DNA from: a virus
Lineage: Duplodnaviria > Heunggongvirae > Uroviricota > Caudoviricetes
Length of the DNA: 27,432 nt
IMG/VR virus record: IMGVR_UViG_2695420763_000018
Strand: one strand, 5' to 3'
Part shown: positions 6,559-25,901 of the stretch, one piece after another
Numbering within the stretch: position 1 is the stretch's first letter
How the letters are laid out: every line of letters begins with the position of its first letter
Position numbers and translations under genes: made by a program
The notes under the pieces: model-generated
The model's database searches: none
What the model saw: the letters and a program-made list of their open reading frames with translations, nothing else
Told to the model about the DNA's origin: nothing

Positions 6559-7023
6559 TTACTTTAAACACTGCTCGGTTATGTATTGCTGAGCACCTTC
6601 AAGTTGGGCCTGCATCATTACCAGTCGTTCCCGGAGGGTGAAATAATCCCGTTCAGCGGTGTCTGCCAGTCGGGGGGAGGCTGCATTATCCACGCCGGAG
6701 GCGGTGGTGGCTTCACGCACTGACTGACAGACTGCTTTGATGTGCAACCGACGACGACCAGCGGCAACATCATCACGCAGAGCATCATTTTCAGCTTTCG
6801 CATCAGCTAACTCCTTCGTGTATTTTGCATCGAGCGCAGCAACATCACGCTGACGCATCTGCATGTCAGTAATTGCCGCGTTCGCCAGCTTCAGTTCTCT
6901 GGCATTTTTGTCGCGCTGGGCTTTGTAGGTAATGGCGTTATCACGGTAATGATTAACAGCCCATGACAGGCAGACGATGATGCAGATAACCAGAGCGGAG
7001 ATAATCGCGGTTACTCTGTTCAT
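6559..7023 (-). CDS. rzpR: i-spanin Rz
   Basis: N-terminal TM segment then coiled-coil-like region. ATG at 7023 overlaps the endolysin TGA stop (ATGA). Intact here, whereas I recall it as truncated in K-12. Confidence 0.8.
6618..6803 (-). CDS. rzoR: o-spanin Rz1 lipoprotein, embedded in the +1 frame of Rz
   Basis: 61-aa ORF wholly inside Rz; signal peptide with lipobox VVVGC and proline-rich mature part (PPPPP, PPP). Confidence 0.8.
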
Positions 7024-7517
7024 TGCTGACCCCACAAACAGATTTCACGCTCAATCTCACGACGAGTCATGAGACCTTTCCATTGCTTACCGCCAGCATA
7101 TGTCCAGCGACGTAGCTGATCACATGCGCCTTTGATATCGCCCTGGTTTATTTTGCGAAGAAGCGTCGATGTTCTGAAATTGCCAGCACCCACGTTGTAA
7201 ACGAATGAGTAAAGAGCGCCGCGCGTTGTTTCCGGTATATCGACTTTGATGTACGTGTTAATTTGTCTGGCGACAGTGGCAAGGTCTTTATTCAAGAGTG
7301 TTTTGCATTCTGCTTTGGTATACGTTTTACCGAGCATGATGTCTTTTCCTGTATGCCCGTGACATACAGTCCATACACCAACAATATCTTTGTATGGTAT
7401 GTAGCTGACACCTTCCAGACCATCGTTACCACTTGGGCCAGTGATTAACACTGATGCTATAGCAATTGCTCCGCCACCAATAGCAGCAGCAACGACTTTT
7501 CGTAATGATGGAGGCAT
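7020..7517 (-). CDS. SAR endolysin (phage 21 R-type lysozyme)
   Basis: 165 aa; N-terminal Gly/Ala-rich signal-anchor-release segment [18 protein letters not shown] followed by a lysozyme catalytic region; closely matches my recollection of R21. Confidence 0.85.
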
Positions 7518-7732
7518 TATTCACCTCTCGCAGCCTTGCGCTTATCTTCTTTAATCTTGAAATAAAGGTTTGTCAGGTACGTCAGCAGGCCAAATACCAG
7601 ACTACCCAGCACACCGATTGCAGCCCACTGTGACGGAGTTACTCTATCGAGCAACTGTAAAAACCAGTAGCCAGCACTGCCTGCGGAGGTGCCGTAGGCA
7701 ATGCCTGTTGAAATTTTGTCCATGGATTTCAT
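7517..7732 (-). CDS. pinholin (phage 21 S-type) with dual-start motif MKSM
   Basis: Matches the S21 pinholin from [26 protein letters not shown] onward; M1 and M4 give the antiholin/holin pair. The 19 codons upstream in the tracked ORF (to 7789) are probably not translated. Confidence 0.8.
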
Positions 7733-7832
7733 AGCCTCACCTCCGCACGGAACGGATGGCATAGTTATTATGTGTAGGCTTTCAGACACATCTATCAGAG
7801 CCTTAATTGATATATATGCTGGAGACGATGCA

Positions 7833-7858
7833 ATATAAAAAGCTCGCCGTAGCGAGCT
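7833..7858 (-). terminator. intrinsic terminator downstream of lipoprotein gene 1, upstream of the holin
   Basis: Stem agctcgc (7841-7847), loop cgta, stem gcgagct (7852-7858); on the minus strand followed by a U-run (plus-strand ataaaa 7835-7840). Confidence 0.6.
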
Positions 7859-7983
7859 AATAAAATGTATTTCTCTGATATTATGTTTATTTGTATTAGC
7901 TCAGACTTGACATCACAGGTTTCGTATATAGAACATCATCAAATCTGTCAGTTTGCTATGAATGAGATATAGTAATTGAAGAG

Positions 7984-8379
7984 CTAACCTCGCATGTCAA
8001 AGCCAGATTTCTGAAAATCTCTGTAGACTTCCGGATTGTTGAAGGCCGGAAATTTGGCTTTATGAGCTGCGGACTTTATCGCTTCGCAATAGGCTTTATC
8101 ACCGTTACTGGTAGATATTTTTAACGCCGTGCCATCCTGAGAGAATTCCATATGCAACCTGCATTTTTTCCCTTTCCAGTTATGCGGCTCATCAAGTTTG
8201 GCATTAATTGCAGCTCTGATTCCCCGCGCTTGCGCCCCCCATTCATCCTGATCATCCCAGCGTCCTGAACTGCAACTACCTGTAGCAGTAGTTTTGTGGC
8301 AATCTGAAGGGTGTAAAGGTGTGCATCCCGCAACAAAACCGACCCAAAAAGTCAACATAACGATTTTCTTTAATCCCAC
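7984..8379 (-). CDS. lipoprotein with TolA-domain-III-like C-terminal domain (paralogue 1)
   Basis: 131 aa; signal peptide with lipobox FVAGC; GTG start at 8379 preceded by GAGGAG at 6-nt spacing. C-terminal half aligns with paralogue 2 (GKxCxLxM...G..L......GD...C.EA..A...A..PA...PEVY..FQ). Confidence 0.7.
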   Translation of the reverse strand: MGLKKIVMLTFWVGFVAGCTPLHPSDCHKTTATGSCSSGRWDDQDEWGAQARGIRAAINAKLDEPHNWKGKKCRLHMEFSQDGTALKISTSNGDKAYCEAIKSAAHKAKFPAFNNPEVYRDFQKSGFDMRG

Positions 8380-8529
8380 TTCTTGCTCCTCAATCCATTA
8401 AAATCTCAGCAATAGTAGTTGTTACGTCCGCCACTGGCTCAGAGCTGACTATCCGCTAAATTTAGCTCAGTGCCGTAGCTGTGTCAGAACAAACCTAAGC
8501 CGAAACCGTTTATTACAAAACAATAAATA

Positions 8530-8958
8530 TCAGGGTTTAAAATCCAGCACCCCATTTTGAAATACTTTATATACTTCCGGCGAAGGGGGGGCAGGTATAT
8601 CAGCATTCTTTATCGCATTCATCGCTTCACGACATAAATCGAGGTCTCCACTTTCTCTTTTAACCTCCAGTAGAAGGCCATTCGGGGCCATATGCATTCT
8701 CAGTGTACACTCTTTTCCTGAATACTTACTCGCATCCCCGAACTGTTTTTCGATGGCGCTCTTGATTTGATGGGCATACAGACGGATATCCTCACTAACA
8801 TCAGAAGTACGTTCAGATGAACTCACATACTGTGTCTCTATTGCTTTATCGGAGTAATATGATGTACGGTCATGATAATTTGTCGATACAGCATCAGTGC
8901 ACCCGATAATAATCCCACTAATAATCAACGTAAGAATTGATGCGCTACGAAAACCCAT
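8530..8958 (-). CDS. lipoprotein with TolA-domain-III-like C-terminal domain (paralogue 2)
   Basis: 142 aa; lipobox IIIGC. C-terminal segment QIKSAIEKQFGDASKYSGKECTLRMHMAPNGLLLEVKRESGDLDLCREAMNAIKNADIPAPPSPEVYKVFQNGVLDFKP closely resembles the TolA C-terminus as I remember it. Confidence 0.75.
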   Translation of the reverse strand: MGFRSASILTLIISGIIIGCTDAVSTNYHDRTSYYSDKAIETQYVSSSERTSDVSEDIRLYAHQIKSAIEKQFGDASKYSGKECTLRMHMAPNGLLLEVKRESGDLDLCREAMNAIKNADIPAPPSPEVYKVFQNGVLDFKP

Positions 8959-9534
8959 TTTTCCTCACATATGTCATATAGTAAAGGATTATATATACCG
9001 TTGTTTTGGACGCTCAAACAGCGAATCAGATCAAATAAAACGCACATTTGTTAACATTTACACAAAGTCTGCGTGGGATATTCTGAAAGAATATCCATAA
9101 TGTGGAGAGAATCTATTGAAGTGCATGGTGCCGGGTGCCTCCCGGTGAACAAAATGTTCGTGATACCTGTCGGCGACAGAAAAGGTTAATGGTATCACCC
9201 CACCGCACAGGGGGATTCACCATGCAGGAGTTTTCTTAGCAAACTCACTGCGCGCCCGGCAACTCCCAACCACATAAAATGCGGAGTTTGTGGCATTTGT
9301 GCATATAACTCGCAGGAATTATCTTAAAAAACTGATGTCGATCCGGATTAAAAAGAAGCAGGTCATCATCAGATGACTGGAAAAAAGGAAAACAAAAAAT
9401 ACTCATCATACAGTTTTGATTGCAGGGATGAGCCTGCTATGCACAATATAAGCAAGATAAAAATATGCAGGCATATTATTTCGGATTTTGTTATTAACAC
9501 AACCTTTTTAATAATCATTTGGCATACAATAAAC

Positions 9535-9566
9535 CAGCCCAAAAAGAACCGCCTAAACAGGCGGTT
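9535..9566 (-). terminator. intrinsic terminator within the late-gene leader
   Basis: Stem aaccgcc (9547-9553) and ggcggtt (9560-9566) around a 6-nt loop; on the minus strand followed by CTTTTTGGG. Confidence 0.6.
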
Positions 9567-9918
9567 GGTCAATACAAAGGATGCTTCGTCTTTATTATAG
9601 TAATCTGAGGCGTCGGGTGTCTTGTATCAGACAACATATTGTCCCGCTAAACAGCGAATTACAAACCACCCGGCGATGATCTCTCATCTCATTTTATATG
9701 AGTTGACGACATCAGGATAACGCATCATCATCCCCTGCCAAGGAATATCAAAACTCCCGCCAGCAATGTGTTATCACAATATTGTAAAAAAAACACAGCA
9801 CCGAAACTATAACTGGTCTCTGTTATAGTTTGGGGTAGCGATAAAGGAGCTCAGGAGACCTTTCCCCACGAAAAAACGCCAGTGCTGCAAAACCAGAGCC
9901 TCATCCACGTCATCAGCC

Positions 9919-9949
<31 letters not shown>

Positions 9950-10445
9950 ACCCGCATATGGTACCAACTATCGCGCTCGAACAAATAAACTACTGATTAG
10001 ATTTCAAATCATGAGCCATACCGACTAAACCAGATCTACATTAGTTCTTCGTGTCAGCTCTAATCAAACAATAAAAGCCGCTCTCCCCGGAACTGGCACC
10101 GATACTAAAAAGGAAGAAAAGGCACTTCAATCGTAATAATCCGAAAGTGGTTCCAGTTAGGTTAACTTATTTCCTGAGTTACATTTTTTATTAAAACAAA
10201 CCGTCCTGAATTCCATCCACCATTTATTTCTGTCATTACAACAGGATAAAGAGCCTTAACCAAGATTCAGGCCGTGAAAACTGATAATATGCTAAAATAA
10301 TCATAACAAGCCGCAGGATAAACTAACAAGTCGTGTAAAAGATGTGTATTCTGCGCAAGTTACACGCCAATATGCGAATTCTCCACTTAAGCAAACAGAA
10401 AGACCAGTTGCCCAACTAGCAGCATTCTCCCCTGCTTTCCTGACG

Positions 10446-10476
10446 TAAAAAAACCGCATTAAGCGGTTTTTTTACG
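10446..10476. terminator. bidirectional intrinsic terminator about 80-110 nt downstream of Q (tR'-like)
   Basis: aaaaaaaccgc-attaa-gcggttttttt: GC stem flanked by A7 and T7 runs, so a hairpin plus U-tract forms on either strand. Confidence 0.7.
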
Positions 10477-10553
10477 ATGTCCATGTCTGCAATCCGCCTC
10501 GCGATACAGCTTTGCGAAGCATAGCAAAATTGAAGCAGTTTATACGTAAGAAA

Positions 10554-12794: not shown

Positions 12795-12827
12795 TTGACA
12801 TAACCCTCAAAAAGGTGCATTTATAAT
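12795..12827 (+). promoter_or_regulatory. candidate promoter of the DUF1971 moron (consensus hexamers, non-canonical spacing)
   Basis: TTGACA at 12795-12800 and TATAAT at 12822-12827, both exact consensus but 21 bp apart instead of 17. Confidence 0.3.
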
Positions 12828-12849
12828 GCATGTTTTATGGGAGGTGGTT

Positions 12850-13191
12850 ATGACACACAAGAGAATTCCTAAAGACTGGGTAATCAAACGCTCAACTCCG
12901 TTCTTCACAAAAGAGAACGTACCTTCAGCGTTATTAACACATCATAATACAGCAGCAGGTGTTTTTGGACAGTTAAGCGTGATGGAAGGTACTGTAACAT
13001 ATTATGGTTTTGCTGATGAGAATGCTACTGAACCGGAGATAAAAGTAGTCATTAATGCTGGCGCTTTTGCAACAAGCCCACCACAATACTGGCACCGTAT
13101 TGAACTAAGCGATGATGCTCAGTTTAATATTAACTTTTGGGTAGCTCCAGACTTCTCAGGCGAAAAAGTCTATACCGCAAAAAAAAAATAG
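12850..13191 (+). CDS. DUF1971 (YeaR/TehB-N-terminal-like) protein
   Basis: Pattern RSTPF...GV.GQLSVMEGTVTYYGFADE..EPE.......AG.FA..PP..WH.IE..DD..FNI.F.VAPDF matches my recollection of E. coli YeaR; ATG 12850 preceded by GGAGGTGG. Confidence 0.65.
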   Translation: MTHKRIPKDWVIKRSTPFFTKENVPSALLTHHNTAAGVFGQLSVMEGTVTYYGFADENATEPEIKVVINAGAFATSPPQYWHRIELSDDAQFNINFWVAPDFSGEKVYTAKKK

Positions 13192-13273
13192 CCACGCTAT
13201 AAATATCTTATTAACTAGTCCCGGCGTGGTTCTTTCCCCGCTGGGTCTTTTACTCAGATTAGTAGTCTACGAA

Positions 13274-13399
13274 TCACAGCCTCCGTCTGCCAGTTCGGAT
13301 TCGTACCTCGCAGAGGTCTTTCCTCGTTACCAGTGCCGTCACTATGACGGTTAAACAGATGACGATCAGGGCGATTAACATCGCCTTTTGCTGCTTCAT
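13274..13399 (-). CDS. hok: Hok-family type I toxin homologue with divergent, shortened C-terminus (41 codons); possibly decayed
   Basis: Product MKQQKAMLIALIVICLTVIVTALVTRKDLCEVRIRTG matches the RelF/HokD N-terminal 37 residues as I recall them, then reads RRRL-stop where canonical Hok continues QTEVAVF...; AGGAG SD upstream; a 19-codon upstream ORF ends on ATGA at the hok start (mok-like coupling). Confidence 0.6.
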   Translation of the reverse strand: MKQQKAMLIALIVICLTVIVTALVTRKDLCEVRIRTGRRRL

Positions 13400-13921
13400 A
13401 GCCTGCTTCTCCTTGACCTTTCGGTCCGTAAGAGGCTAATCTCTATGTGTCGCATAGATATGGCCTCAGATTAATGTTAAACGTCTTGCAGGACGCGTAA
13501 TGTTAACTGGGGCTTTTCTCTATCTACCTTTGGTGTTCATGCCCGAGGCAGATAGCCTCAAGCACCCACAGCAATTCTAACTATCCAATACATCACTGCC
13601 AACACTTTAAACTCTTACCCTTTAAAACAAGAACAAAATTCAACCAATCAGCATTGGGCGTATACTCATATCCTAGAGAAAACAACTCTTTCTGTACTAT
13701 TTATATCCATATGATTTATAAGCATTTGCCACTTGCCATAGCCGCACAATGACAGTTTGCCATTTGATGTCAATAGATAAAAATGATCGTTTTCAATGAG
13801 TTACATACTTGCAAGGCGTTGCACATCAGGCCCGATTACGTCAGTATCAAAAGATTACAGATGGTGCATTACTGCCACCTCGCCTTAATGTTCCAGAACT
13901 CTCCAACTTGAGGAATTTTCA

Positions 13922-14695
13922 ATGACATCCTTTCAATTATCTTTGATTTCTCGTGAAATTGACGGCGAAATAATACATTTACGTGCCAAAGATGGTTACA
14001 TAAACGCCACATCAATGTGTAGAACTGCGGGCAAACTGCTCTCTGATTACACTAGACTCAAAACTACTCAAGAGTTTTTTGACGAATTATCACGCGATAT
14101 GGGAATTCCCATATCGGAGTTAATTCAATCATTTAAAGGTGGAAGACCTGAAAACCAAGGGACATGGGTGCATCCTGACATCGCTATTAATCTAGCGCAG
14201 TGGCTATCGCCCAAATTTGCAGTCCAGGTTTCAAGATGGGTTCGTGAATGGATGTCAGGGGAAAGAACTACAGCAGAAATGCCTGTACATTTAAAACGGT
14301 ACATGGTTAATCGTAGTAGAATTCCTCACACGCACTTTTCTATTCTTAATGAACTGACATTCAACTTGGTTGCACCTCTTGAACAAGCAGGGTACACACT
14401 CCCAGAAAAAATGGTTCCTGACATTTCACAAGGAAGAGTATTTTCACAATGGTTAAGAGATAATAGAAACGTAGAACCCAAAACATTCCCTACCTATGAC
14501 CATGAATATCCCGATGGTCGCGTATACCCTGCAAGGCTGTACCCAAATGAATATTTAGCAGATTTCAAAGAACATTTTAACAATATTTGGTTGCCGCAAT
14601 ATGCCCCGAAATACTTCGCTGACCGGGACAAAAAGGCTCTCGCCTTGATTGAAAAAATTATGCTACCTAACCTCGATGGCAATGAACAGTTCTAA
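13922..14695 (+). CDS. KilA-N domain protein with uncharacterised C-terminal domain
   Basis: N-terminal segment LISREIDGEIIHLRAKDGYINATSMCRTAGKLLSDY...PDIAINLAQWL is KilA-N-like; GAGGAA SD 7 nt upstream; transcribed opposite to its neighbours. Confidence 0.7.
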   Translation: MTSFQLSLISREIDGEIIHLRAKDGYINATSMCRTAGKLLSDYTRLKTTQEFFDELSRDMGIPISELIQSFKGGRPENQGTWVHPDIAINLAQWLSPKFAVQVSRWVREWMSGERTTAEMPVHLKRYMVNRSRIPHTHFSILNELTFNLVAPLEQAGYTLPEKMVPDISQGRVFSQWLRDNRNVEPKTFPTYDHEYPDGRVYPARLYPNEYLADFKEHFNNIWLPQYAPKYFADRDKKALALIEKIMLPNLDGNEQF

Positions 14696-17455: not shown

Positions 17456-18313
17456 TTACCCCCTGAAGCCTGGCGGGATCGCACTATCCGGTAACGAGAC
17501 GGTGTTAACCTGTCGGAATAACGTCTCAGGTCGAACACCTTTCGGCGCGAACAAGCCCTGGTATTCATTGGCGATGCTGTGTCGAATCACCTGCTCAGGT
17601 GAAAAACCCTGCTGGCGGAATTTTTCCAGCTCCCGTATCGCCCCGTTAGCGCCCTGCTCCGTTCGAATCGGTTTTCGCAATGCCTGGCGAAATTCAACCC
17701 ACTCACGCCAAAGCGAGACAGAAATCCAGTTCGGCAAAGTAATATCCAGAGGGTCAAACTTTTTGACACCTCGATTCCCCCGGGGGGGATTTAGGGGGGG
17801 ATCTGTTTTTAGATCTTTATCTGTATCTTTATTAGTTGCCTTTGTGTTGACATCATGTTCAAACACCACTTCAACATCTGTTTGAACACCTGTTAAATTT
17901 CTCTCTTGTTTTGTTTGAACATCTGCTTCCTTTCTGCTTCTTCTGGCCTGAACAGATGCTTTTCCTGCGGCTGATTTTTTGGTTAATTTTTCCCTGACTG
18001 ATGCCAGATCTTCCTCAATCCGAAGATGCACCCATTCCTCGCCGTTATCGCAAAAAAACTCCTGCAAGGATGGTTCAACATCAGCCCATCGCTCGTTAGT
18101 CAGACGGGCAATTTTTGCCAGCCTGTTTTTAGGTATTGGCTTTCCTGTTTGCCAGTAATTGAACATCAGCAACAAATACGCACCATGCTCCTCTGCTGAC
18201 AAATGCATGGTGTCAGCCAGGTAATCAGCTATGTACAGTTGCATGTATGGTAATGCGGCCATAATTGCCCCGTATGATGCTGCCCGGTGGCTTAGAATAA
18301 GCACAAACAGCAT
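17456..18313 (-). CDS. ydaU: replication initiation protein (lambda O-like role)
   Basis: 285-aa ORF recognised as Rac YdaU; sits directly upstream of the DnaC-like gene as O/P-type replication modules do. Confidence 0.8.
   Translation of the reverse strand: MLFVLILSHRAASYGAIMAALPYMQLYIADYLADTMHLSAEEHGAYLLLMFNYWQTGKPIPKNRLAKIARLTNERWADVEPSLQEFFCDNGEEWVHLRIEEDLASVREKLTKKSAAGKASVQARRSRKEADVQTKQERNLTGVQTDVEVVFEHDVNTKATNKDTDKDLKTDPPLNPPRGNRGVKKFDPLDITLPNWISVSLWREWVEFRQALRKPIRTEQGANGAIRELEKFRQQGFSPEQVIRHSIANEYQGLFAPKGVRPETLFRQVNTVSLPDSAIPPGFRG
17856..17921. repeat. three copies of a 10-bp quasi-palindrome TGTT(C/T)(A/G)AACA inside ydaU (iteron-like; candidate origin)
   Basis: tgttcaaaca 17856-17865, tgtttgaaca 17879-17888, tgtttgaaca 17912-17921; preceded by GGATCT...AGATCT (17800-17816) and two G7 runs (17782-17788, 17794-17800). 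Confidence 0.45.
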
Positions 18314-18325
18314 GGAAACTTTTGC

Positions 18326-18748
18326 TTAATGAACAATGACAGAATCGTCGGAAGAACCGCCGCCGCTGAAATGCGCTTTCCGGTAAACGGCTTGGACTGC
18401 ATCATCATGCGCATCAATTGCCGTACTTAACGCTTCCTGCGCCGCCAGTAATGCACGGCGTTCCAGGGTATCGAAGATGCAGAGTCGGTGACGCAGCTCG
18501 CGCGGAAGGATTGCCAGAATTGCTGGGATCAGCTTCTGAATTTTTTCTCTTTGCGTTTTCGTTTCACCTTTCAACCAACGGTGATAGATATTCTGCTGAT
18601 TGTTCCAGTCCTTGCCTGGAACCAGGGGCAATTCGCCGCCCCCCTGGCGCAGATATTCTTCAGTAATTGCATTGGCTACCCATGCCTGCCCTTTTTCGGC
18701 TGCTAGGGCAAACAACACTGATTCGATGTGCTCATGCTTGATTTTCAT
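18326..18748 (-). CDS. ydaT: YdaT (toxic Rac protein)
   Basis: 140-aa ORF recognised as Rac YdaT; immediately downstream of ydaS on the same strand. Confidence 0.85.
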   Translation of the reverse strand: MKIKHEHIESVLFALAAEKGQAWVANAITEEYLRQGGGELPLVPGKDWNNQQNIYHRWLKGETKTQREKIQKLIPAILAILPRELRHRLCIFDTLERRALLAAQEALSTAIDAHDDAVQAVYRKAHFSGGGSSDDSVIVH

Positions 18749-18770
18749 GAATCATTTGCCTCTTGATGTT

Positions 18771-19067
18771 TCAGGTATGATCAAATGAGGATTTGTTACT
18801 GTCATTTAGTTGCTTCACTGACATATTCTGCGAACAACATGCCGAACGTCGTAAATATGACCAGTCAATATCAGGACGAAGTTCTTCGCACAGAACCTCA
18901 CCTCTTGTTGCACGTTCAATTGCTGGACATCTCTCGGCAGGCAATTGACGTACCCCTTTGATCCATTGATTTACGCTTGGAGGTGATACACCTAAAAGCC
19001 TAGCCATTGCTGATTGCCCACCGACAACAGCACAAGCTTGCTTGAATGAATAGTTCTCTTTTTTCAT
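18771..19067 (-). CDS. ydaS: YdaS, Cro-like HTH protein
   Basis: 98-aa ORF with HTH segment QSAMARLLGVSPPSVNQWIKG; divergent from racR. Confidence 0.85.
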   Translation of the reverse strand: MKKENYSFKQACAVVGGQSAMARLLGVSPPSVNQWIKGVRQLPAERCPAIERATRGEVLCEELRPDIDWSYLRRSACCSQNMSVKQLNDSNKSSFDHT

Positions 19068-19096
19068 CGAATGAACTCCAAAAACACACAGAAATA

Positions 19097-19161
19097 TTAG
19101 GCGACGCCTAACGCAATTGTCAATAGGCTGTGCCTAATGCGGTAAGGGTAGGGATTGCCTA
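19097..19161. promoter_or_regulatory. three operator-like sites TAGGC-N3-GCCTA in the ydaS/racR divergent promoter region
   Basis: TTAGGCGACGCCTAA (19097-19111), ATAGGCTGTGCCTAA (19123-19137), TAGGGATTGCCTA (19149-19161, one mismatch); centre-to-centre spacing about 25-26 bp. Confidence 0.6.
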
Positions 19162-19190
19162 ATGTAATGCGCATAGGAGAATATTAAGCA

Positions 19191-19667
19191 ATGCTTAGTG
19201 GTAAAGACTTAGGCCGAGCGATAGAGCAGGCCATTAACAAAAAAATCGCATCGGGATCCGTCAAATCAAAGGCGGAGGTCGCACGCCACTTTAAAGTCCA
19301 ACCACCATCAATTTATGACTGGATTAAGAAAGGCTCTATAAGTAAAGATAAACTTCCAGAATTATGGCGTTTCTTTTCTGATGTTGTTGGTCCAGAGCAT
19401 TGGGGGCTTAACGAATACCCCATACCAACCCCCACCAATTCAGATACAAAAAGTGAACTTTTAGATATAAACAACCTTTATCAAGCAGCCTCTGATGAAA
19501 TAAGAGCGATTGTAGCTTTCCTGTTATCTGGAAATGCTACAGAACCAGATTGGGTTGACCACGATGTTCGCGCCTACATAGCAGCGATGGAAATGAAAGT
19601 GGGTAAGTATCTGAAAGCTCTTGAATCTGAACGGAAAAGCCAGAACATCACAAAAACTGGAACTTAA
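19191..19667 (+). CDS. racR: Rac prophage repressor RacR
   Basis: 158-aa ORF recognised as RacR; HTH near the N-terminus; divergent from ydaS. Confidence 0.9.
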   Translation: MLSGKDLGRAIEQAINKKIASGSVKSKAEVARHFKVQPPSIYDWIKKGSISKDKLPELWRFFSDVVGPEHWGLNEYPIPTPTNSDTKSELLDINNLYQAASDEIRAIVAFLLSGNATEPDWVDHDVRAYIAAMEMKVGKYLKALESERKSQNITKTGT

Positions 19668-19764
19668 ACTTATATGGTCTGACGGAAAACTCCTGGATTC
19701 CGTTATTTAACCCCCCCATCACTTTCTGCTGTCGCCATCACCTATTAGGTTACGCTCAAAACAT

Positions 19765-19802
19765 TAGGCATAGCCTATTGACAATCAATTAGGCATTACC
19801 TA
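19765..19802. promoter_or_regulatory. two further operator-like sites downstream of racR
   Basis: TAGGCATAGCCTA (19765-19777) and TAGGCATTACCTA (19790-19802), 25 bp apart; 19762-19784 is a 22/23 inverted copy of 19127-19149. Confidence 0.55.
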
Positions 19803-19975
19803 TAGTTCCAGCATACCACCCACCCCGCCCCACAGAACGCCGGGCAATACTTCGAGTTACCAGGCAGTGATAAGGGGTTAAGTAGCCAGCCCGAGGCGTA
19901 TGAACATGACGGCGGGATTCAAATTTTGCAGTGCAGCAGTTAGTTCCGCCACCCGGCGTTAAGGGGAGAGATAAG

Positions 19976-25504: not shown

Positions 25505-25699
25505 ATGAGATATGACAATGTTAAACCATGTCCATTTTGTGGTTGTCCATCAGTAACGGTGAAAGCCATTTCAGGATATTACCGAGCGAAGTGTAACGGA
25601 TGCGAATCCCGAACCGGTTATGGTGGAAGTGAAAAAGAAGCACTCGAAAGATGGAATAAACGAACCACTGGAAATAATAATGGAGGTATTCATGTATAA
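25505..25699 (+). CDS. ralR: RalR (Lar), restriction alleviation protein and type I TA toxin
   Basis: 64 aa from MRYDNVKPCPFCGCPSVTVKAISGYYRAKCNGCES...; zinc-ribbon-like Cys pairs. Confidence 0.85.
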   Translation: MRYDNVKPCPFCGCPSVTVKAISGYYRAKCNGCESRTGYGGSEKEALERWNKRTTGNNNGGIHV

Positions 25700-25901
25700 A
25701 ATTACCGCCACTATTGAAAAGGAAGGTGGCACTCCTACTAACTGGACAAGATATTCAAAATCTAAACTAACGAAATCAGAATGCGAAAAAATGCTCTCAG
25801 GTAAAAAAGAAGCAGGCGTTTCCAGAGAGCAGAAAGTAAAACTGATAAATTTTAATTGCGAGAAACTTCAGTCCTCGAGAATTGCATTGTATTCAAATTA
25901 A
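25692..25901 (+). CDS. ydaC: YdaC
   Basis: 69 aa from MYKITATIEKEGG...; GGAGGT SD; its ATG overlaps the ralR stop region. Confidence 0.75.
   Translation: MYKITATIEKEGGTPTNWTRYSKSKLTKSECEKMLSGKKEAGVSREQKVKLINFNCEKLQSSRIALYSN

What the first reader, a model, noticed from the sequence alone, without database searches (positions are those of the whole stretch)
13268..13560. hok/sok-type type I toxin-antitoxin locus with a shortened Hok
The first 37 codons match RelF/HokD as I recall it, but after RIRTG the reading frame gives RRRL-stop; inserting one base would restore a GQTE... continuation, and the DNA further on still ends ...AATCTGAGTAA like a canonical hok 3' end. A 19-codon upstream ORF ends on ATGA at the hok start (mok-like coupling). 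On the opposite strand, TTGACC at 13413-13418 could be a Sok promoter. The locus looks like a recently inactivated hok, although a 41-aa Hok that is still toxic cannot be excluded.
Basis: partly seen in the sequence, partly recalled or inferred. Interest (0 to 1): 0.5.

Follow-up and report, generated by a model that had tools for sequence, protein, structure and literature searches.

The report
Decayed hok/sok toxin-antitoxin locus in prophage
This is a real copy of the well-known hok/sok toxin-antitoxin module inside a Rac-type lambdoid prophage; its RNA control half is intact, but its toxin gene and the 3' end of its mRNA are damaged, so it is an ordinary, probably disarmed, family member.

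Summary
On the minus strand, 13399..13274 encodes a 41-aa Hok/Gef peptide (Pfam 3.2e-16).

The locus is 91.5% identical in DNA to the experimentally validated hokW-sokW of Stx phages. It lies in a Rac-type prophage between a BstA-like gene and a DUF1971 gene.

"Recently inactivated by one indel" is only partly right:
- A rare 48-aa allele (3 contigs) shows that the 1-bp deletion (GGCCAG to GGCAG) was the last step.
- That 48-aa allele already carried a 2-bp frameshift, a GAA-to-TAA change and a 3-bp deletion.
- Homology to hok ends just after the first 3' hairpin, so the fbi element and the terminator are missing.

The 41-aa allele is not private. It is in at least 1000 contigs and 104 of 5426 complete E. 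coli genomes, all nearly identical, and RefSeq annotates it as a Hok/Gef family protein.

Published R1 Hok mutagenesis makes a non-toxic product most likely; Sok looks functional. Interest is low.

The parts
13574..13602 (-). hok mRNA promoter: TTGGCA, 17-nt spacer, TAGAAT
   Evidence: The consensus scan matches 10 of 12 positions and this is the only site found in 13050-13750. It lies 6 nt upstream of the mRNA 5' end inferred from the Rfam model start at 13567. The -10 TAGAAT is conserved in 933W and U1.
13397..13567 (-). hok mRNA 5' leader. The 5' end (tac, nt 1-14 = 13567-13554) pairs with ucb (nt 53-59 = 13515-13509). The leader also contains the Sok target, the mok and hok Shine-Dalgarno sequences, and the hok AUG.
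   Evidence: Rfam RF01794 'sok' scores 101.5 bits, E 3e-22, over the full model 1-157. The hit is on the hok-sense strand and its last three positions are the hok AUG. The minimum-free-energy fold pairs nt 1-8 with nt 53-59.
13396..13455 (-). mok-like leader ORF: 19 codons (MRHIEISLLRTERSRRSRL) plus a TGA that overlaps the hok ATG (ATGA)
   Evidence: Translation. The arrangement is the same in intact hokD of strain U1. In R1 hok, mok translation is needed only up to the hok start, and 19 mok codons lie upstream of it (PMC9841398).
13274..13399 (-). Truncated hok ORF, 41 aa: Hok residues 1-37 plus an out-of-frame RRRL tail and a TGA stop
   Evidence: Pfam PF01848 at 3.2e-16, profile positions 1-34 of 42 only. 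RefSeq WP_001445775.1, 'Hok/Gef family protein'. The 1-bp deletion relative to hokD, hokW and the 48-aa allele is shown.
13250..13273 (-). Vestige of the hok 3' coding end (TTCGTAGACTAC TAA TCTG AGTAA). It is back in the original frame after the 2-bp deletion, but carries GAA-to-TAA and a 3-bp deletion.
   Evidence: Alignments A1 and A2. Translation reads *FVDY*SE*, against HokW ...VFVDYESEK*.
13217..13248 (.). Hairpin just after the old hok stop. It is the last segment homologous to hokD/hokW. Read on the plus strand, it is followed by TCTTTT and looks like the terminator of the convergent DUF1971 gene.
   Evidence: Fold of the minus strand gives -13.0 kcal/mol. Fold of the plus strand gives -17.5 kcal/mol, z -3.6. 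Homology to hokW/hokD ends after ...CACGCC at about 13222.
13179..13200 (-). Weak hairpin (AUAGC/GCUAU) followed by U10. This is the only terminator-like feature downstream of hok, and it overlaps the DUF1971 stop and its KKK codons.
   Evidence: Fold energy is -3.4 kcal/mol, no better than shuffled sequence. The terminator scan does not detect it. hokD of U1 instead has fbi followed by a strong terminator, AACCCGCTTCGGCGGGTTTT.
13413..13442 (+). Sok promoter: -35 TTGACC (13413-13418), 18-nt spacer, -10 TAATCT (13437-13442)
   Evidence: It aligns with the region upstream of the annotated sokW of 933W (TTGCCT ... TAACCT). The sokW promoter is functionally supported in PMC8621323. The -10 matches only 3 of 6 positions, so the consensus scan did not report it.
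13449..13517 (+). Sok-like antisense RNA, 69 nt: a short 5' hairpin and linker (about 13 nt), a long hairpin, and a UUUU tail
   Evidence: Ends are mapped from the annotated sokW. The fold gives -25.8 kcal/mol, z -4.6. It is 68 of 69 nt identical to the Sok region of intact hokD in strain U1.
13138..13154 (-). Segment complementary to tac (AAGTCTGGAGCTACCCA), antisense to DUF1971 codons WVAPDF. It is probably coincidental and is listed because it could act as a substitute fbi if transcription reads through.
   Evidence: Duplex energy is -20.9 kcal/mol against -14.5 +/- 2.0 for shuffles, with 0 of 200 shuffles reaching it. The minimum-free-energy fold of transcripts of 430 nt or more pairs nt 1-13 with nt 416-429. 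However, a hok-less DUF1971 copy in Shigella gives the same energy (-20.9), with one base different in this segment.

Best explanation
[quoted passage not shown] It is carried in the nin region of a Rac-type lambdoid prophage. Its 5' regulatory half is intact and its 3' half has decayed.

Shown:
- A strong hok promoter, a leader that can form the tac/ucb stem, a 19-codon mok ORF coupled to hok by ATGA, and an antisense Sok gene with promoter and terminator hairpin are all present and close to functional relatives.
- The hok ORF is cut to 37 native residues plus RRRL. This followed a series of lesions: a 2-bp deletion, a TAA change and a 3-bp deletion, and last a 1-bp deletion.
- A mosaic junction with a DUF1971 gene removed the fbi element and the native terminator.

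Inferred:
- Without fbi the hok mRNA cannot be stored in the closed, inert form. It should fold directly into the open tac-stem form, which Sok binds and which ribosomes can translate.
- The 41-aa product lacks the C-terminal periplasmic tail, including the conserved Glu and the Tyr/Cys position. Its tail charge changes from -2 to +5.
- The product is therefore most likely non-toxic or strongly attenuated, and the locus no longer works as a killing or addiction module.
- Sok is probably still made. The damaged allele persists because it is neutral and rides on a successful prophage.
For: Family identity:
- Pfam HOK_GEF at 3.2e-16 and Rfam RF01794 at 101.5 bits.
- 91.5% nucleotide identity to hokW-sokW, which is a validated toxin-antitoxin pair (PMC8621323).
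- 96.7% identity to hokD loci.

Intact 5' half:
- Promoter match of 10 of 12 and the mok ORF.
- Sok fold at z -4.6.
- Sok is 68 of 69 nt identical to that of an intact hokD.

Decay of the 3' half:
- Three indels (1, 2 and 3 bp) and a TAA change.
- Divergence from hokD is 18 mismatches plus 3 gaps in 66 nt in the 3' part, against 5 mismatches plus 2 gaps in 279 nt in the 5' part. Functional hokW and hokD differ from each other by no indel in the 3' part.
- The 48-aa intermediate allele fixes the order of events.

Loss of fbi:
- In the hokW and hokD controls, the minimum-free-energy fold pairs nt 1-12 with nt 375-387.
- The window's 387-nt transcript instead pairs its 5' end with ucb.
- Homology ends at about 13222.
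- No credible terminator follows.

Toxicity, by inference from R1 Hok (PMC9841398):
- 18 of the 20 possible premature stops were loss-of-function.
- M46I and Y48N were loss-of-function.
- C-terminal tags or extensions abolish toxicity.

Further support:
- bioRxiv 10.1101/2025.08.07.668861 treats CDS under 40 aa as degenerate, found a truncated R1 Hok non-toxic, and reports that the Cys29-Cys46 disulfide is essential in HokB, with Tyr-to-Cys46 editing also in hokC/D/E.
- PMC8509063 reports that the C-terminus lies in the periplasm and that replacing the C-terminal region with PhoA gave a non-toxic protein.
- The tail charge goes from -2 to +5.
- Other hokD alleles with a stop at codon 38 exist independently, so hokD decay of this type recurs.
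Against: - No experiment on this allele exists.
- Hok toxicity tolerates many changes. 42 of 45 diverse homologues were toxic, and E41A and E49A were still toxic. The transmembrane segment also contributes to toxicity (PMC8509063). Many type I toxins are shorter than 41 aa (my own knowledge).
- The 41-aa allele is almost fixed: 104 of 104 complete genomes with this 3' end, and at least 1000 contigs against 3 for the 48-aa allele. This could reflect selection rather than hitch-hiking.
- All 5' control elements are perfectly preserved. If the toxin were dead they should eventually decay, although the allele may simply be too young for that.
- A tac-complementary segment 42 nt beyond the usual fbi position could restore fold-back inhibition if the mRNA reads through the weak U10 hairpin.
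Confidence: 0.65

Rival explanations
1. The locus is a working toxin-antitoxin system with a naturally short toxin. In this reading the 41-aa peptide (the transmembrane helix plus RKDLCEVRIRTG plus a polybasic RRRL tail) still damages the inner membrane. Sok restrains it, and, as with HokW in Sp5, it helps lysis and phage release on induction or stabilises the prophage.
For: - Every element needed for expression and for Sok control is intact.
- The transmembrane segment and the conserved LCE motif are retained.
- The transmembrane region contributes to HokC toxicity (PMC8509063).
- Most tested Hok variants are toxic, and single changes of conserved residues are tolerated.
- The allele is widespread and predominates over the 48-aa form.
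- HokW has a role that benefits the phage (PMC8621323).
Against: - In R1 Hok, premature stops, M46I, Y48N and any C-terminal tag or extension all abolish toxicity (PMC9841398).
- The product has lost the Tyr/Cys position needed for the disulfide reported as essential in HokB.
- The tail charge of +5 argues against export of the C-terminus (this is inference from the positive-inside rule).
- The RRRL tail is an out-of-frame by-product of serial indels, not a conserved sequence.
- The copies are clonal, so their number is not evidence of selection.
- Without fbi a toxic product would be poorly controlled.
Confidence: 0.17
2. The locus is kept for its RNA rather than its toxin. The disarmed copy acts as a constitutive source of Sok (and of a decoy hok leader). 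This Sok cross-neutralises hokD-type hok mRNAs from other prophages or plasmids in the same cell, working as an anti-addiction or immunity function.
For: - The Sok gene and promoter are intact while the toxin is damaged.
- This Sok is 68 of 69 nt identical to that of an intact hokD locus.
- Most E. coli genomes carry several hokD-like leaders: 4718 of 5426 genomes have a match, with a median of 2 and up to 9 places.
Against: - This is purely inferential. No covariation or selection signal can be extracted from near-identical copies.
- Sok differs from sokW in the 5' tail, so cross-reaction with hokW-type loci is uncertain.
- Chromosomal hok loci are often regarded as inactive anyway, which leaves little to protect against.
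Confidence: 0.12
3. The frameshift is a sequencing or assembly error, or is bypassed by programmed frameshifting, and the real product is a normal Hok.
For: - The deletion lies in a short CC run, GGCCAG to GGCAG.
- Three rare Arg codons (AGA CGG AGG) follow the deletion.
Against: - The same deletion is present in 104 complete genomes, in phage record ON470614 and 5 IMG/VR contigs (records ON470616 and ON470590 match at 99.8%), and in at least 1000 contigs.
- Even with the base restored, the product is the non-canonical 48-aa ...GQTEA(V/L)IRRLLI, because of the 2-bp deletion.
- A -1 shift would be needed and there is no slippery heptamer at the site (sequence).
Confidence: 0.01

Closest known systems
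hokW-sokW (with mokW) of Stx phages 933W and Sp5/VT2-Sakai
   Same: - 91.5% nucleotide identity over 344 nt.
- Identical first 37 Hok codons, and the same -10 TAGAAT, leader fold and Sok position.
- Also carried by a lambdoid prophage.
- Experimentally shown to be a type I toxin-antitoxin pair that promotes phage release (PMC8621323).
   Different: - HokW is 51 aa (...GQTEVAVFVDYESEK); here the product is 41 aa ending in RRRL.
- In 933W, mokW is in frame with hokW as an N-terminal extension; here mok stops at the hok ATG.
- hokW keeps fbi (TCCTCAACGCACCCG, nt 375-387), which pairs with the 5' end; here fbi is absent.
- The 5' tail of Sok differs.
hokD (relF) loci of E. coli, in the intact form with leader, as in strain U1 (WP_000813254.1)
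   Same: - 96.7% identity over the leader and the ORF as far as GGAGG, query positions 62-361.
- The same 19-codon mok ending in ATGA, the same TTGACC Sok -35, and Sok 68 of 69 nt identical.
   Different: - hokD encodes 51 aa and has fbi followed by a strong intrinsic terminator.
- The window has 3 indels, a TAA change, and a replaced 3' flank.
- K-12 hokD matches only query positions 228-361, from 13 nt upstream of the hok ATG to codon 40, and not the leader, so K-12 shows a different kind of decay.
hok/sok of plasmid R1 (the reference system)
   Same: The architecture matches: promoter, tac/ucb leader, mok with 19 codons upstream of hok, hok, and an antisense Sok whose promoter overlaps the hok Shine-Dalgarno region (PMC9841398).
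   Different: - R1 Hok is 52 aa, and HokW is only 44% identical to it (PMC8621323).
- R1 relies on tac/fbi fold-back and 3' processing for post-segregational killing. The window lacks fbi and a defined 3' end.
Degenerate chromosomal hok loci: inactivated K-12 hokA/B/C/E copies, and the Q38-stop hokD alleles seen here
   Same: The toxin half is lost while the leader and Sok are retained. Independent hokD alleles with a stop at codon 38 (CAG to TAG, or GGCTAAG) occur in other prophage contexts. The Hok catalogue preprint discards such short CDS as degenerate.
   Different: Those alleles carry one lesion and keep fbi and the terminator. The window allele carries serial indels and a recombinational replacement of the 3' UTR. 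It is also the fixed form in a widespread prophage lineage.

Membership tests
[quoted passage not shown] | A toxin ORF belonging to the Hok/Gef family (Pfam PF01848), with an N-terminal transmembrane helix and the conserved LCE motif | tested here: met
   PF01848 at E 3.2e-16, 59.1 bits against a cut-off of 22. Residues 1-37 are identical to HokD and HokW.
[quoted passage not shown] | A full-length Hok of about 48-55 aa with the C-terminal periplasmic tail, including the conserved Glu41 and the Tyr/Cys at 46-48 | tested here: not met
   The ORF ends after G37 plus RRRL, and only Pfam profile positions 1-34 of 42 are matched. Conserved positions and the 40-aa degeneracy threshold are taken from bioRxiv 10.1101/2025.08.07.668861.
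[quoted passage not shown] | A conserved hok mRNA leader able to form the tac/ucb stem, with the Sok target hairpin | tested here: met
   Rfam RF01794 at 101.5 bits (gathering score 59) over the full model. The fold pairs nt 1-8 with nt 53-59.
[quoted passage not shown] | A mok leader ORF whose translation is coupled to hok | tested here: met
   A 19-codon ORF, 13455..13396, ends in a TGA that overlaps the hok ATG. The arrangement is the same in intact hokD of U1. Coupling itself cannot be tested here.
[quoted passage not shown] | A cis-encoded antisense Sok RNA gene with its own promoter and terminator | tested here: met
   Homology to the annotated sokW and its promoter. The 69-nt RNA folds at -25.8 kcal/mol, z -4.6, with a U tail. 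Transcription was not measured.
[quoted passage not shown] | An fbi element near the mRNA 3' end that pairs with the 5' tac and keeps full-length mRNA closed, followed by a terminator | tested here: not met
   In the hokW and hokD controls nt 1-12 pair with nt 375-387. The window has no homologous segment, because homology ends at about 13222. A tac-complementary stretch at 13138-13154 exists, but a hok-less Shigella DUF1971 copy gives the same duplex energy. No credible terminator is present.
[quoted passage not shown] | The toxin kills or arrests the cell, and Sok neutralises it | not testable with these tools
   This needs expression assays. The literature on R1 Hok predicts loss of toxicity for C-terminal truncations (PMC9841398).
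Rac-type lambdoid prophage (genomic context) | Gene order int - ydaQ - ralR/RalA - recT - recE - racC - kilR - sieB ... replication genes ... nin region ... lysis genes - trkG | tested here: met
   The window is 98.7-99.7% identical to prophage record ON470614, which carries these annotated genes. The RalA sRNA scores 225 bits at 25698-25876.

The most novel reading that the evidence does not exclude
The Hok(1-37)+RRRL peptide and the fbi-less, constitutively open hok mRNA might be a selected derivative rather than debris. Two forms of this reading are possible. One is an attenuated membrane peptide that the Rac-type phage uses at induction, in the way HokW helps Sp5 release. The other is a disarmed locus retained as a Sok donor or hok-leader decoy that gives the lysogen immunity to hokD-type killing by other mobile elements. 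Three observations fit this reading but do not establish it: the near-fixation of the 41-aa allele over the 48-aa one, independent stops at codon 38 in other hokD loci, and the fortuitous tac-complementary stretch in the DUF1971 gene.
Probability: 0.15. Interest if true: 0.45.

Novelty: already known. Interest (0 to 1): 0.2.

Why it matters
Practical value:
- The RefSeq protein WP_001445775.1 is labelled "Hok/Gef family protein" with no flag that it is truncated. It is better read as a truncated remnant.
- Automated toxin-antitoxin or defence counts that include this allele over-count functional toxins. At 41 aa it sits just above the 40-aa cut-off used in the recent Hok catalogue.
- The Rfam "sok" hit lies on the hok-sense strand. 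It marks the hok leader, not the antisense RNA.

Biological value: the locus is a clean natural example of how a type I toxin-antitoxin module decays on a mosaic phage genome. The 3' regulatory end was lost by recombination, the toxin was knocked out by serial indels, and the antitoxin half has been preserved so far.

If the minority reading were true (a functional short Hok, or a Sok-only immunity module), the locus would give a ready-made natural variant for dissecting the role of the Hok C-terminal tail and of fold-back inhibition.

Tried and rejected
(1) A substitute fbi. A duplex search found a tac-complementary 17-mer at 13138-13154. Its energy is -20.9 kcal/mol, no shuffle of 200 reached it, and folds of transcripts of 430 nt or more use it. 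I do not count it as a designed element, for these reasons:
- It lies beyond the U10 tract.
- It is antisense to conserved DUF1971 codons (WVAPDF).
- A Shigella DUF1971 copy with no hok beside it gives the same duplex energy, -20.9.
- Other DUF1971 genes reach -19.7.

(2) An ancestral pairing of hok with DUF1971. Eighty species-level DUF1971 loci (Kluyvera, Leclercia, Klebsiella, Citrobacter, Vibrio and others) contain no hok ORF or leader. The junction is specific to this prophage lineage.

(3) An exact-pattern scan of GTDB species representatives for the variant 3' end found nothing. IMG/VR gave 7 contigs. The 5 that could be read all carry the 41-aa allele.

(4) Recoding. A -1 shift would be required and there is no slippery site. 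A +1 shift would give an unrelated ...DGGCDS tail. Even the repaired frame is non-canonical.

(5) Sequencing error. Rejected on population data.

(6) A selection test (dN/dS or covariation) within the allele is not possible. Nearly all listed copies are 100% identical, and all are at least 99%.

(7) The apparent hotspot at codon 38. Other truncated alleles end there, but I retrieved them by searching for the 37-aa protein, so the coincidence is built into the search and is not evidence of a hotspot.

(8) The simple promoter scan did not report the Sok promoter because its -10 matches only 3 of 6 positions. Its assignment rests on homology to sokW. The supplementary tables of PMC9841398, which list the exact stop positions, are not held.
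Full report
WHAT IS THERE

The feature lies on the minus strand. A sigma-70 promoter (TTGGCA, 17-nt spacer, TAGAAT; 13602..13574) matches the consensus at 10 of 12 positions and is the only such site in 13050-13750. It sits just upstream of 13567. From 13567 to 13397 the sequence matches Rfam RF01794 over the model's full length, at 101.5 bits against a gathering score of 59, E 3e-22.

That hit is on the hok-sense strand and ends with the hok AUG. It therefore describes the hok mRNA leader, not the antisense RNA. Within the leader, a 19-codon ORF (13455..13396, MRHIEISLLRTERSRRSRL) ends in a TGA that overlaps the hok ATG.

The hok ORF (13399..13274) gives MKQQKAMLIALIVICLTVIVTALVTRKDLCEVRIRTGRRRL. 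It hits Pfam HOK_GEF at E 3.2e-16, but only over profile positions 1-34 of 42.

On the plus strand, TTGACC (13413-13418) and TAATCT (13437-13442) align with the promoter region of the annotated sokW RNA of phage 933W. The homologous RNA would span 13449..13517. This 69-nt RNA folds into a short 5' hairpin and linker, a long hairpin and a U tail, at -25.8 kcal/mol and z -4.6.

RELATIVES

- The 451-nt locus matches 4718 of 5426 complete E. coli genomes in part, with a median of 2 places per genome.
- It is 96.7% identical to intact hokD loci over the leader and the ORF as far as GGAGG, query positions 62-361.
- It is 91.5% identical to hokW-sokW of Stx phages over 344 nt.
- hokW-sokW is an experimentally validated type I toxin-antitoxin pair. 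Its toxin rises on prophage induction and roughly doubles Sp5 release (PMC8621323).

CONTEXT

The window is 98.7-99.7% identical to the PHASTER-predicted prophage record vB_EcoS-666R9, apart from two mosaic replacements. That record is a complete Rac-type lambdoid element carrying int, ydaQ, ralR, recT, recE, racC, kil, sieB, replication genes, a nin region, lysis genes and trkG; the window additionally scores for the RalA sRNA.

The hok locus sits in the nin region. On one side, transcribed divergently, is a KilA-N/BstA-like gene at 13922-14695 (PADLOC BstA 3.2e-21). On the other side, convergent with hok, is a DUF1971 gene at 12826-13191.

THE 3' HALF IS DAMAGED IN SEVERAL WAYS

Alignment with hokW and hokD shows identical nucleotides through codon 37. 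After that come four lesions:
- a 1-bp deletion (GG-CAG);
- a 2-bp deletion;
- a GAA-to-TAA change;
- a 3-bp deletion.

The 1-bp and 2-bp deletions together return to the original frame, but the out-of-frame stretch between them contains a TGA. The old frame now reads G-RRRL*-FVDY*-SE*.

Divergence from hokD is 5 mismatches plus 2 gaps in the 279 nt of leader and codons 1-37. It is 18 mismatches plus 3 gaps in the next 66 nt. Functional hokW and hokD differ from each other in that 3' part by 11 substitutions and no indel.

Homology to hok ends after the first 3' hairpin, at about 13222. Beyond it lie a short unique junction and then the DUF1971 module. A Shigella copy of that module is 90.6% identical up to the DUF1971 stop and has different DNA, with no hok, after it.

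The fbi element and the native terminator are consequently absent. As a positive control, minimum-free-energy folds of the hokW and hokD mRNAs pair nt 1-12 with nt 375-387, the known tac/fbi interaction. The window transcript ending at the U10 tract instead pairs its 5' end with ucb, which is the open form.

The only terminator-like feature is a 5-bp hairpin plus U10 at -3.4 kcal/mol, no better than shuffled sequence.

ORDER OF EVENTS AND DISTRIBUTION

A 48-aa protein, MKQQ...RIRTGQTEALIRRLLI, occurs in 3 contigs. It is encoded by loci in the same context with the same aberrant 3' end, but they keep GGCCAG as in hokD. One of them already carries the window's neighbouring T (CTGGCC). The 1-bp deletion is therefore the most recent lesion, on a background that was already non-canonical.

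The 41-aa allele is found as follows:
- at least 1000 contigs (the counting cap), including E. marmotae;
- RefSeq WP_001445775.1, annotated "Hok/Gef family protein";
- 104 of 5426 complete E. coli genomes. All 104 are at least 99% identical over 103 nt, nearly all of the 60 listed rows are 100% identical, and none carries the 48-aa form;
- three GenBank prophage records at 99.8% identity, one of which was translated here, and 5 IMG/VR contigs.

It is thus not an error and not private to this genome. The copies are clonal, so their number says nothing about selection. The window itself carries two private substitutions: G at 13277 (a synonymous CTG/CTC change in the 41-aa frame) and A at 13186.

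LIKELY MECHANISM

The following are shown by sequence and homology: the promoter, the leader, mok coupling, the Sok gene, the truncated ORF and the loss of fbi.

The following are inferred:
- Without fbi the mRNA cannot be held in the closed, Sok-resistant, untranslatable form that R1 hok uses to build a stable reservoir (PMC9841398).
- The mRNA should therefore fold directly into the tac-stem form. Sok would bind and destroy it, or it would be translated into Mok and the 41-aa peptide.

The peptide lacks the last 14 residues. Evidence that such a product is non-toxic:
- In R1 Hok, 18 of the 20 possible premature stops, M46I, Y48N, read-through extensions and a C-terminal FLAG tag all abolish toxicity (PMC9841398).
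- A truncated R1 Hok is non-toxic, and the Cys29-Cys46 disulfide is reported as essential in HokB, with the equivalent Tyr-to-Cys editing site in hokC/D/E (bioRxiv 10.1101/2025.08.07.668861).
- The Gef/HokC C-terminus is periplasmic, and replacing the C-terminal region with PhoA gave a non-toxic protein (PMC8509063).
- The tail's net charge changes from -2 to +5. By the positive-inside rule this should hinder export (inference).

I therefore rate [quoted passage not shown] at about 0.65.

RIVALS

- A still-toxic short Hok (0.17) is not excluded. The transmembrane segment contributes to toxicity, and Hok tolerates much sequence change: 42 of 45 homologues were toxic, and E41A and E49A were still toxic.
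- A Sok-only or anti-addiction role (0.12) is suggested by Sok being 68 of 69 nt identical to that of an intact hokD, and by the frequent co-residence of hokD-like loci. There is no direct support.
- Artefact or recoding is rejected (0.01).

A LEAD THAT DID NOT HOLD

A 17-nt stretch at 13138-13154, antisense to DUF1971 codons WVAPDF, pairs with the mRNA 5' end as well as the true fbi does in hokW: -20.9 against -21.5 kcal/mol, with no shuffle of 200 reaching it. Folds of transcripts of 430 nt or more adopt this pairing.

However, the hok-less Shigella DUF1971 copy gives the same duplex energy, and other DUF1971 genes come close. The element also lies beyond the U10 tract. I treat it as coincidence that could still be exploited. 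Only 3' end mapping can decide.

COMPARISON AND NOVELTY

The locus meets the family features for the toxin N-terminal domain, the leader, mok and Sok. It fails two features: a full-length Hok tail, and fbi with a terminator. It is therefore a degenerate member of the hokD/hokW clade, not a new kind of system.

hok genes are known to be enriched in prophages, and CDS shorter than 40 aa are routinely discarded as degenerate. At 41 aa, this one just escapes that filter. Other hokD alleles with stops at codon 38 but intact 3' ends also exist.

Noticed in passing
window 25698-25876 (-): A complete RalA sRNA (Rfam RF02694, 225 bits), the antitoxin of the RalR DNase type I toxin-antitoxin pair of Rac prophage. 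A second type I system therefore sits in the same prophage. The ralR-homologous ORF lies next to it, by comparison with record ON470614.
   Followed up: partly
window 9069-9255 (-): A hit to the sRNA family STnc100 (RF02076, 86.6 bits). It lies inside the 7023-10495 segment, which shows no megablast match to prophage vB_EcoS-666R9 (a mosaic replacement covering the Q/lysis-proximal region).
   Followed up: no
window 13922-14695 (+): The gene transcribed divergently from hok encodes a KilA-N protein (Pfam 4.3e-27). Its C-terminal half matches PADLOC BstA (3.2e-21), and homologues carry Pfam BstA_C. It is a likely prophage-borne abortive-infection defence gene right beside the hok remnant.
   Followed up: partly
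window 12826-13191 (+); L015-L094: The DUF1971 (TehB/YeaR-like) gene convergent with hok has chromosomal homologues at 71-82% amino-acid identity in Kluyvera, Leclercia, Klebsiella, Citrobacter, Vibrio, Photobacterium and others. None of them has a neighbouring hok. It looks like a moron captured from a bacterial chromosome. Its apparent terminator (13217-13248, plus strand, -17.5 kcal/mol) is the reverse complement of the retained hok 3' hairpin.
   Followed up: partly
L095, L096, L097 (other E. coli contigs), positions 1501-1614: Other hokD loci, in different prophage contexts, carry a stop exactly at codon 38 (CAG to TAG in L096 and L097; GGCTAAG in L095) while keeping the downstream coding sequence, fbi and terminator. 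Several further variants in the protein search diverge right after RIRTG(Q): P0001, P0003, P0009 and P0018. Whether codon 37/38 is a true breakpoint or mutation hotspot, or only an effect of how I searched, was not resolved.
   Followed up: partly
window 13138-13154 (-): The antisense of DUF1971 codons WVAPDF is complementary to the hok mRNA 5' end (-20.9 kcal/mol, as strong as the real fbi of hokW). A hok-less Shigella copy gives the same energy, so this is probably coincidence.
   Followed up: yes
window 13277 and 13186: The window has two private differences from the common allele seen in the complete genomes and prophage records. One is CTG instead of CTC in the last sense codon before the TGA. 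The other is an uninterrupted A10 run where the others have AAAAAAAGAA, which changes the penultimate DUF1971 residue from E to K.
   Followed up: partly
window 17713-19814: The immunity region (repressor/cro) is largely unrelated to that of the otherwise 99%-identical prophage vB_EcoS-666R9. Only a 428-nt stretch matches, at 92.8% identity. This is the usual lambdoid immunity swap.
   Followed up: no
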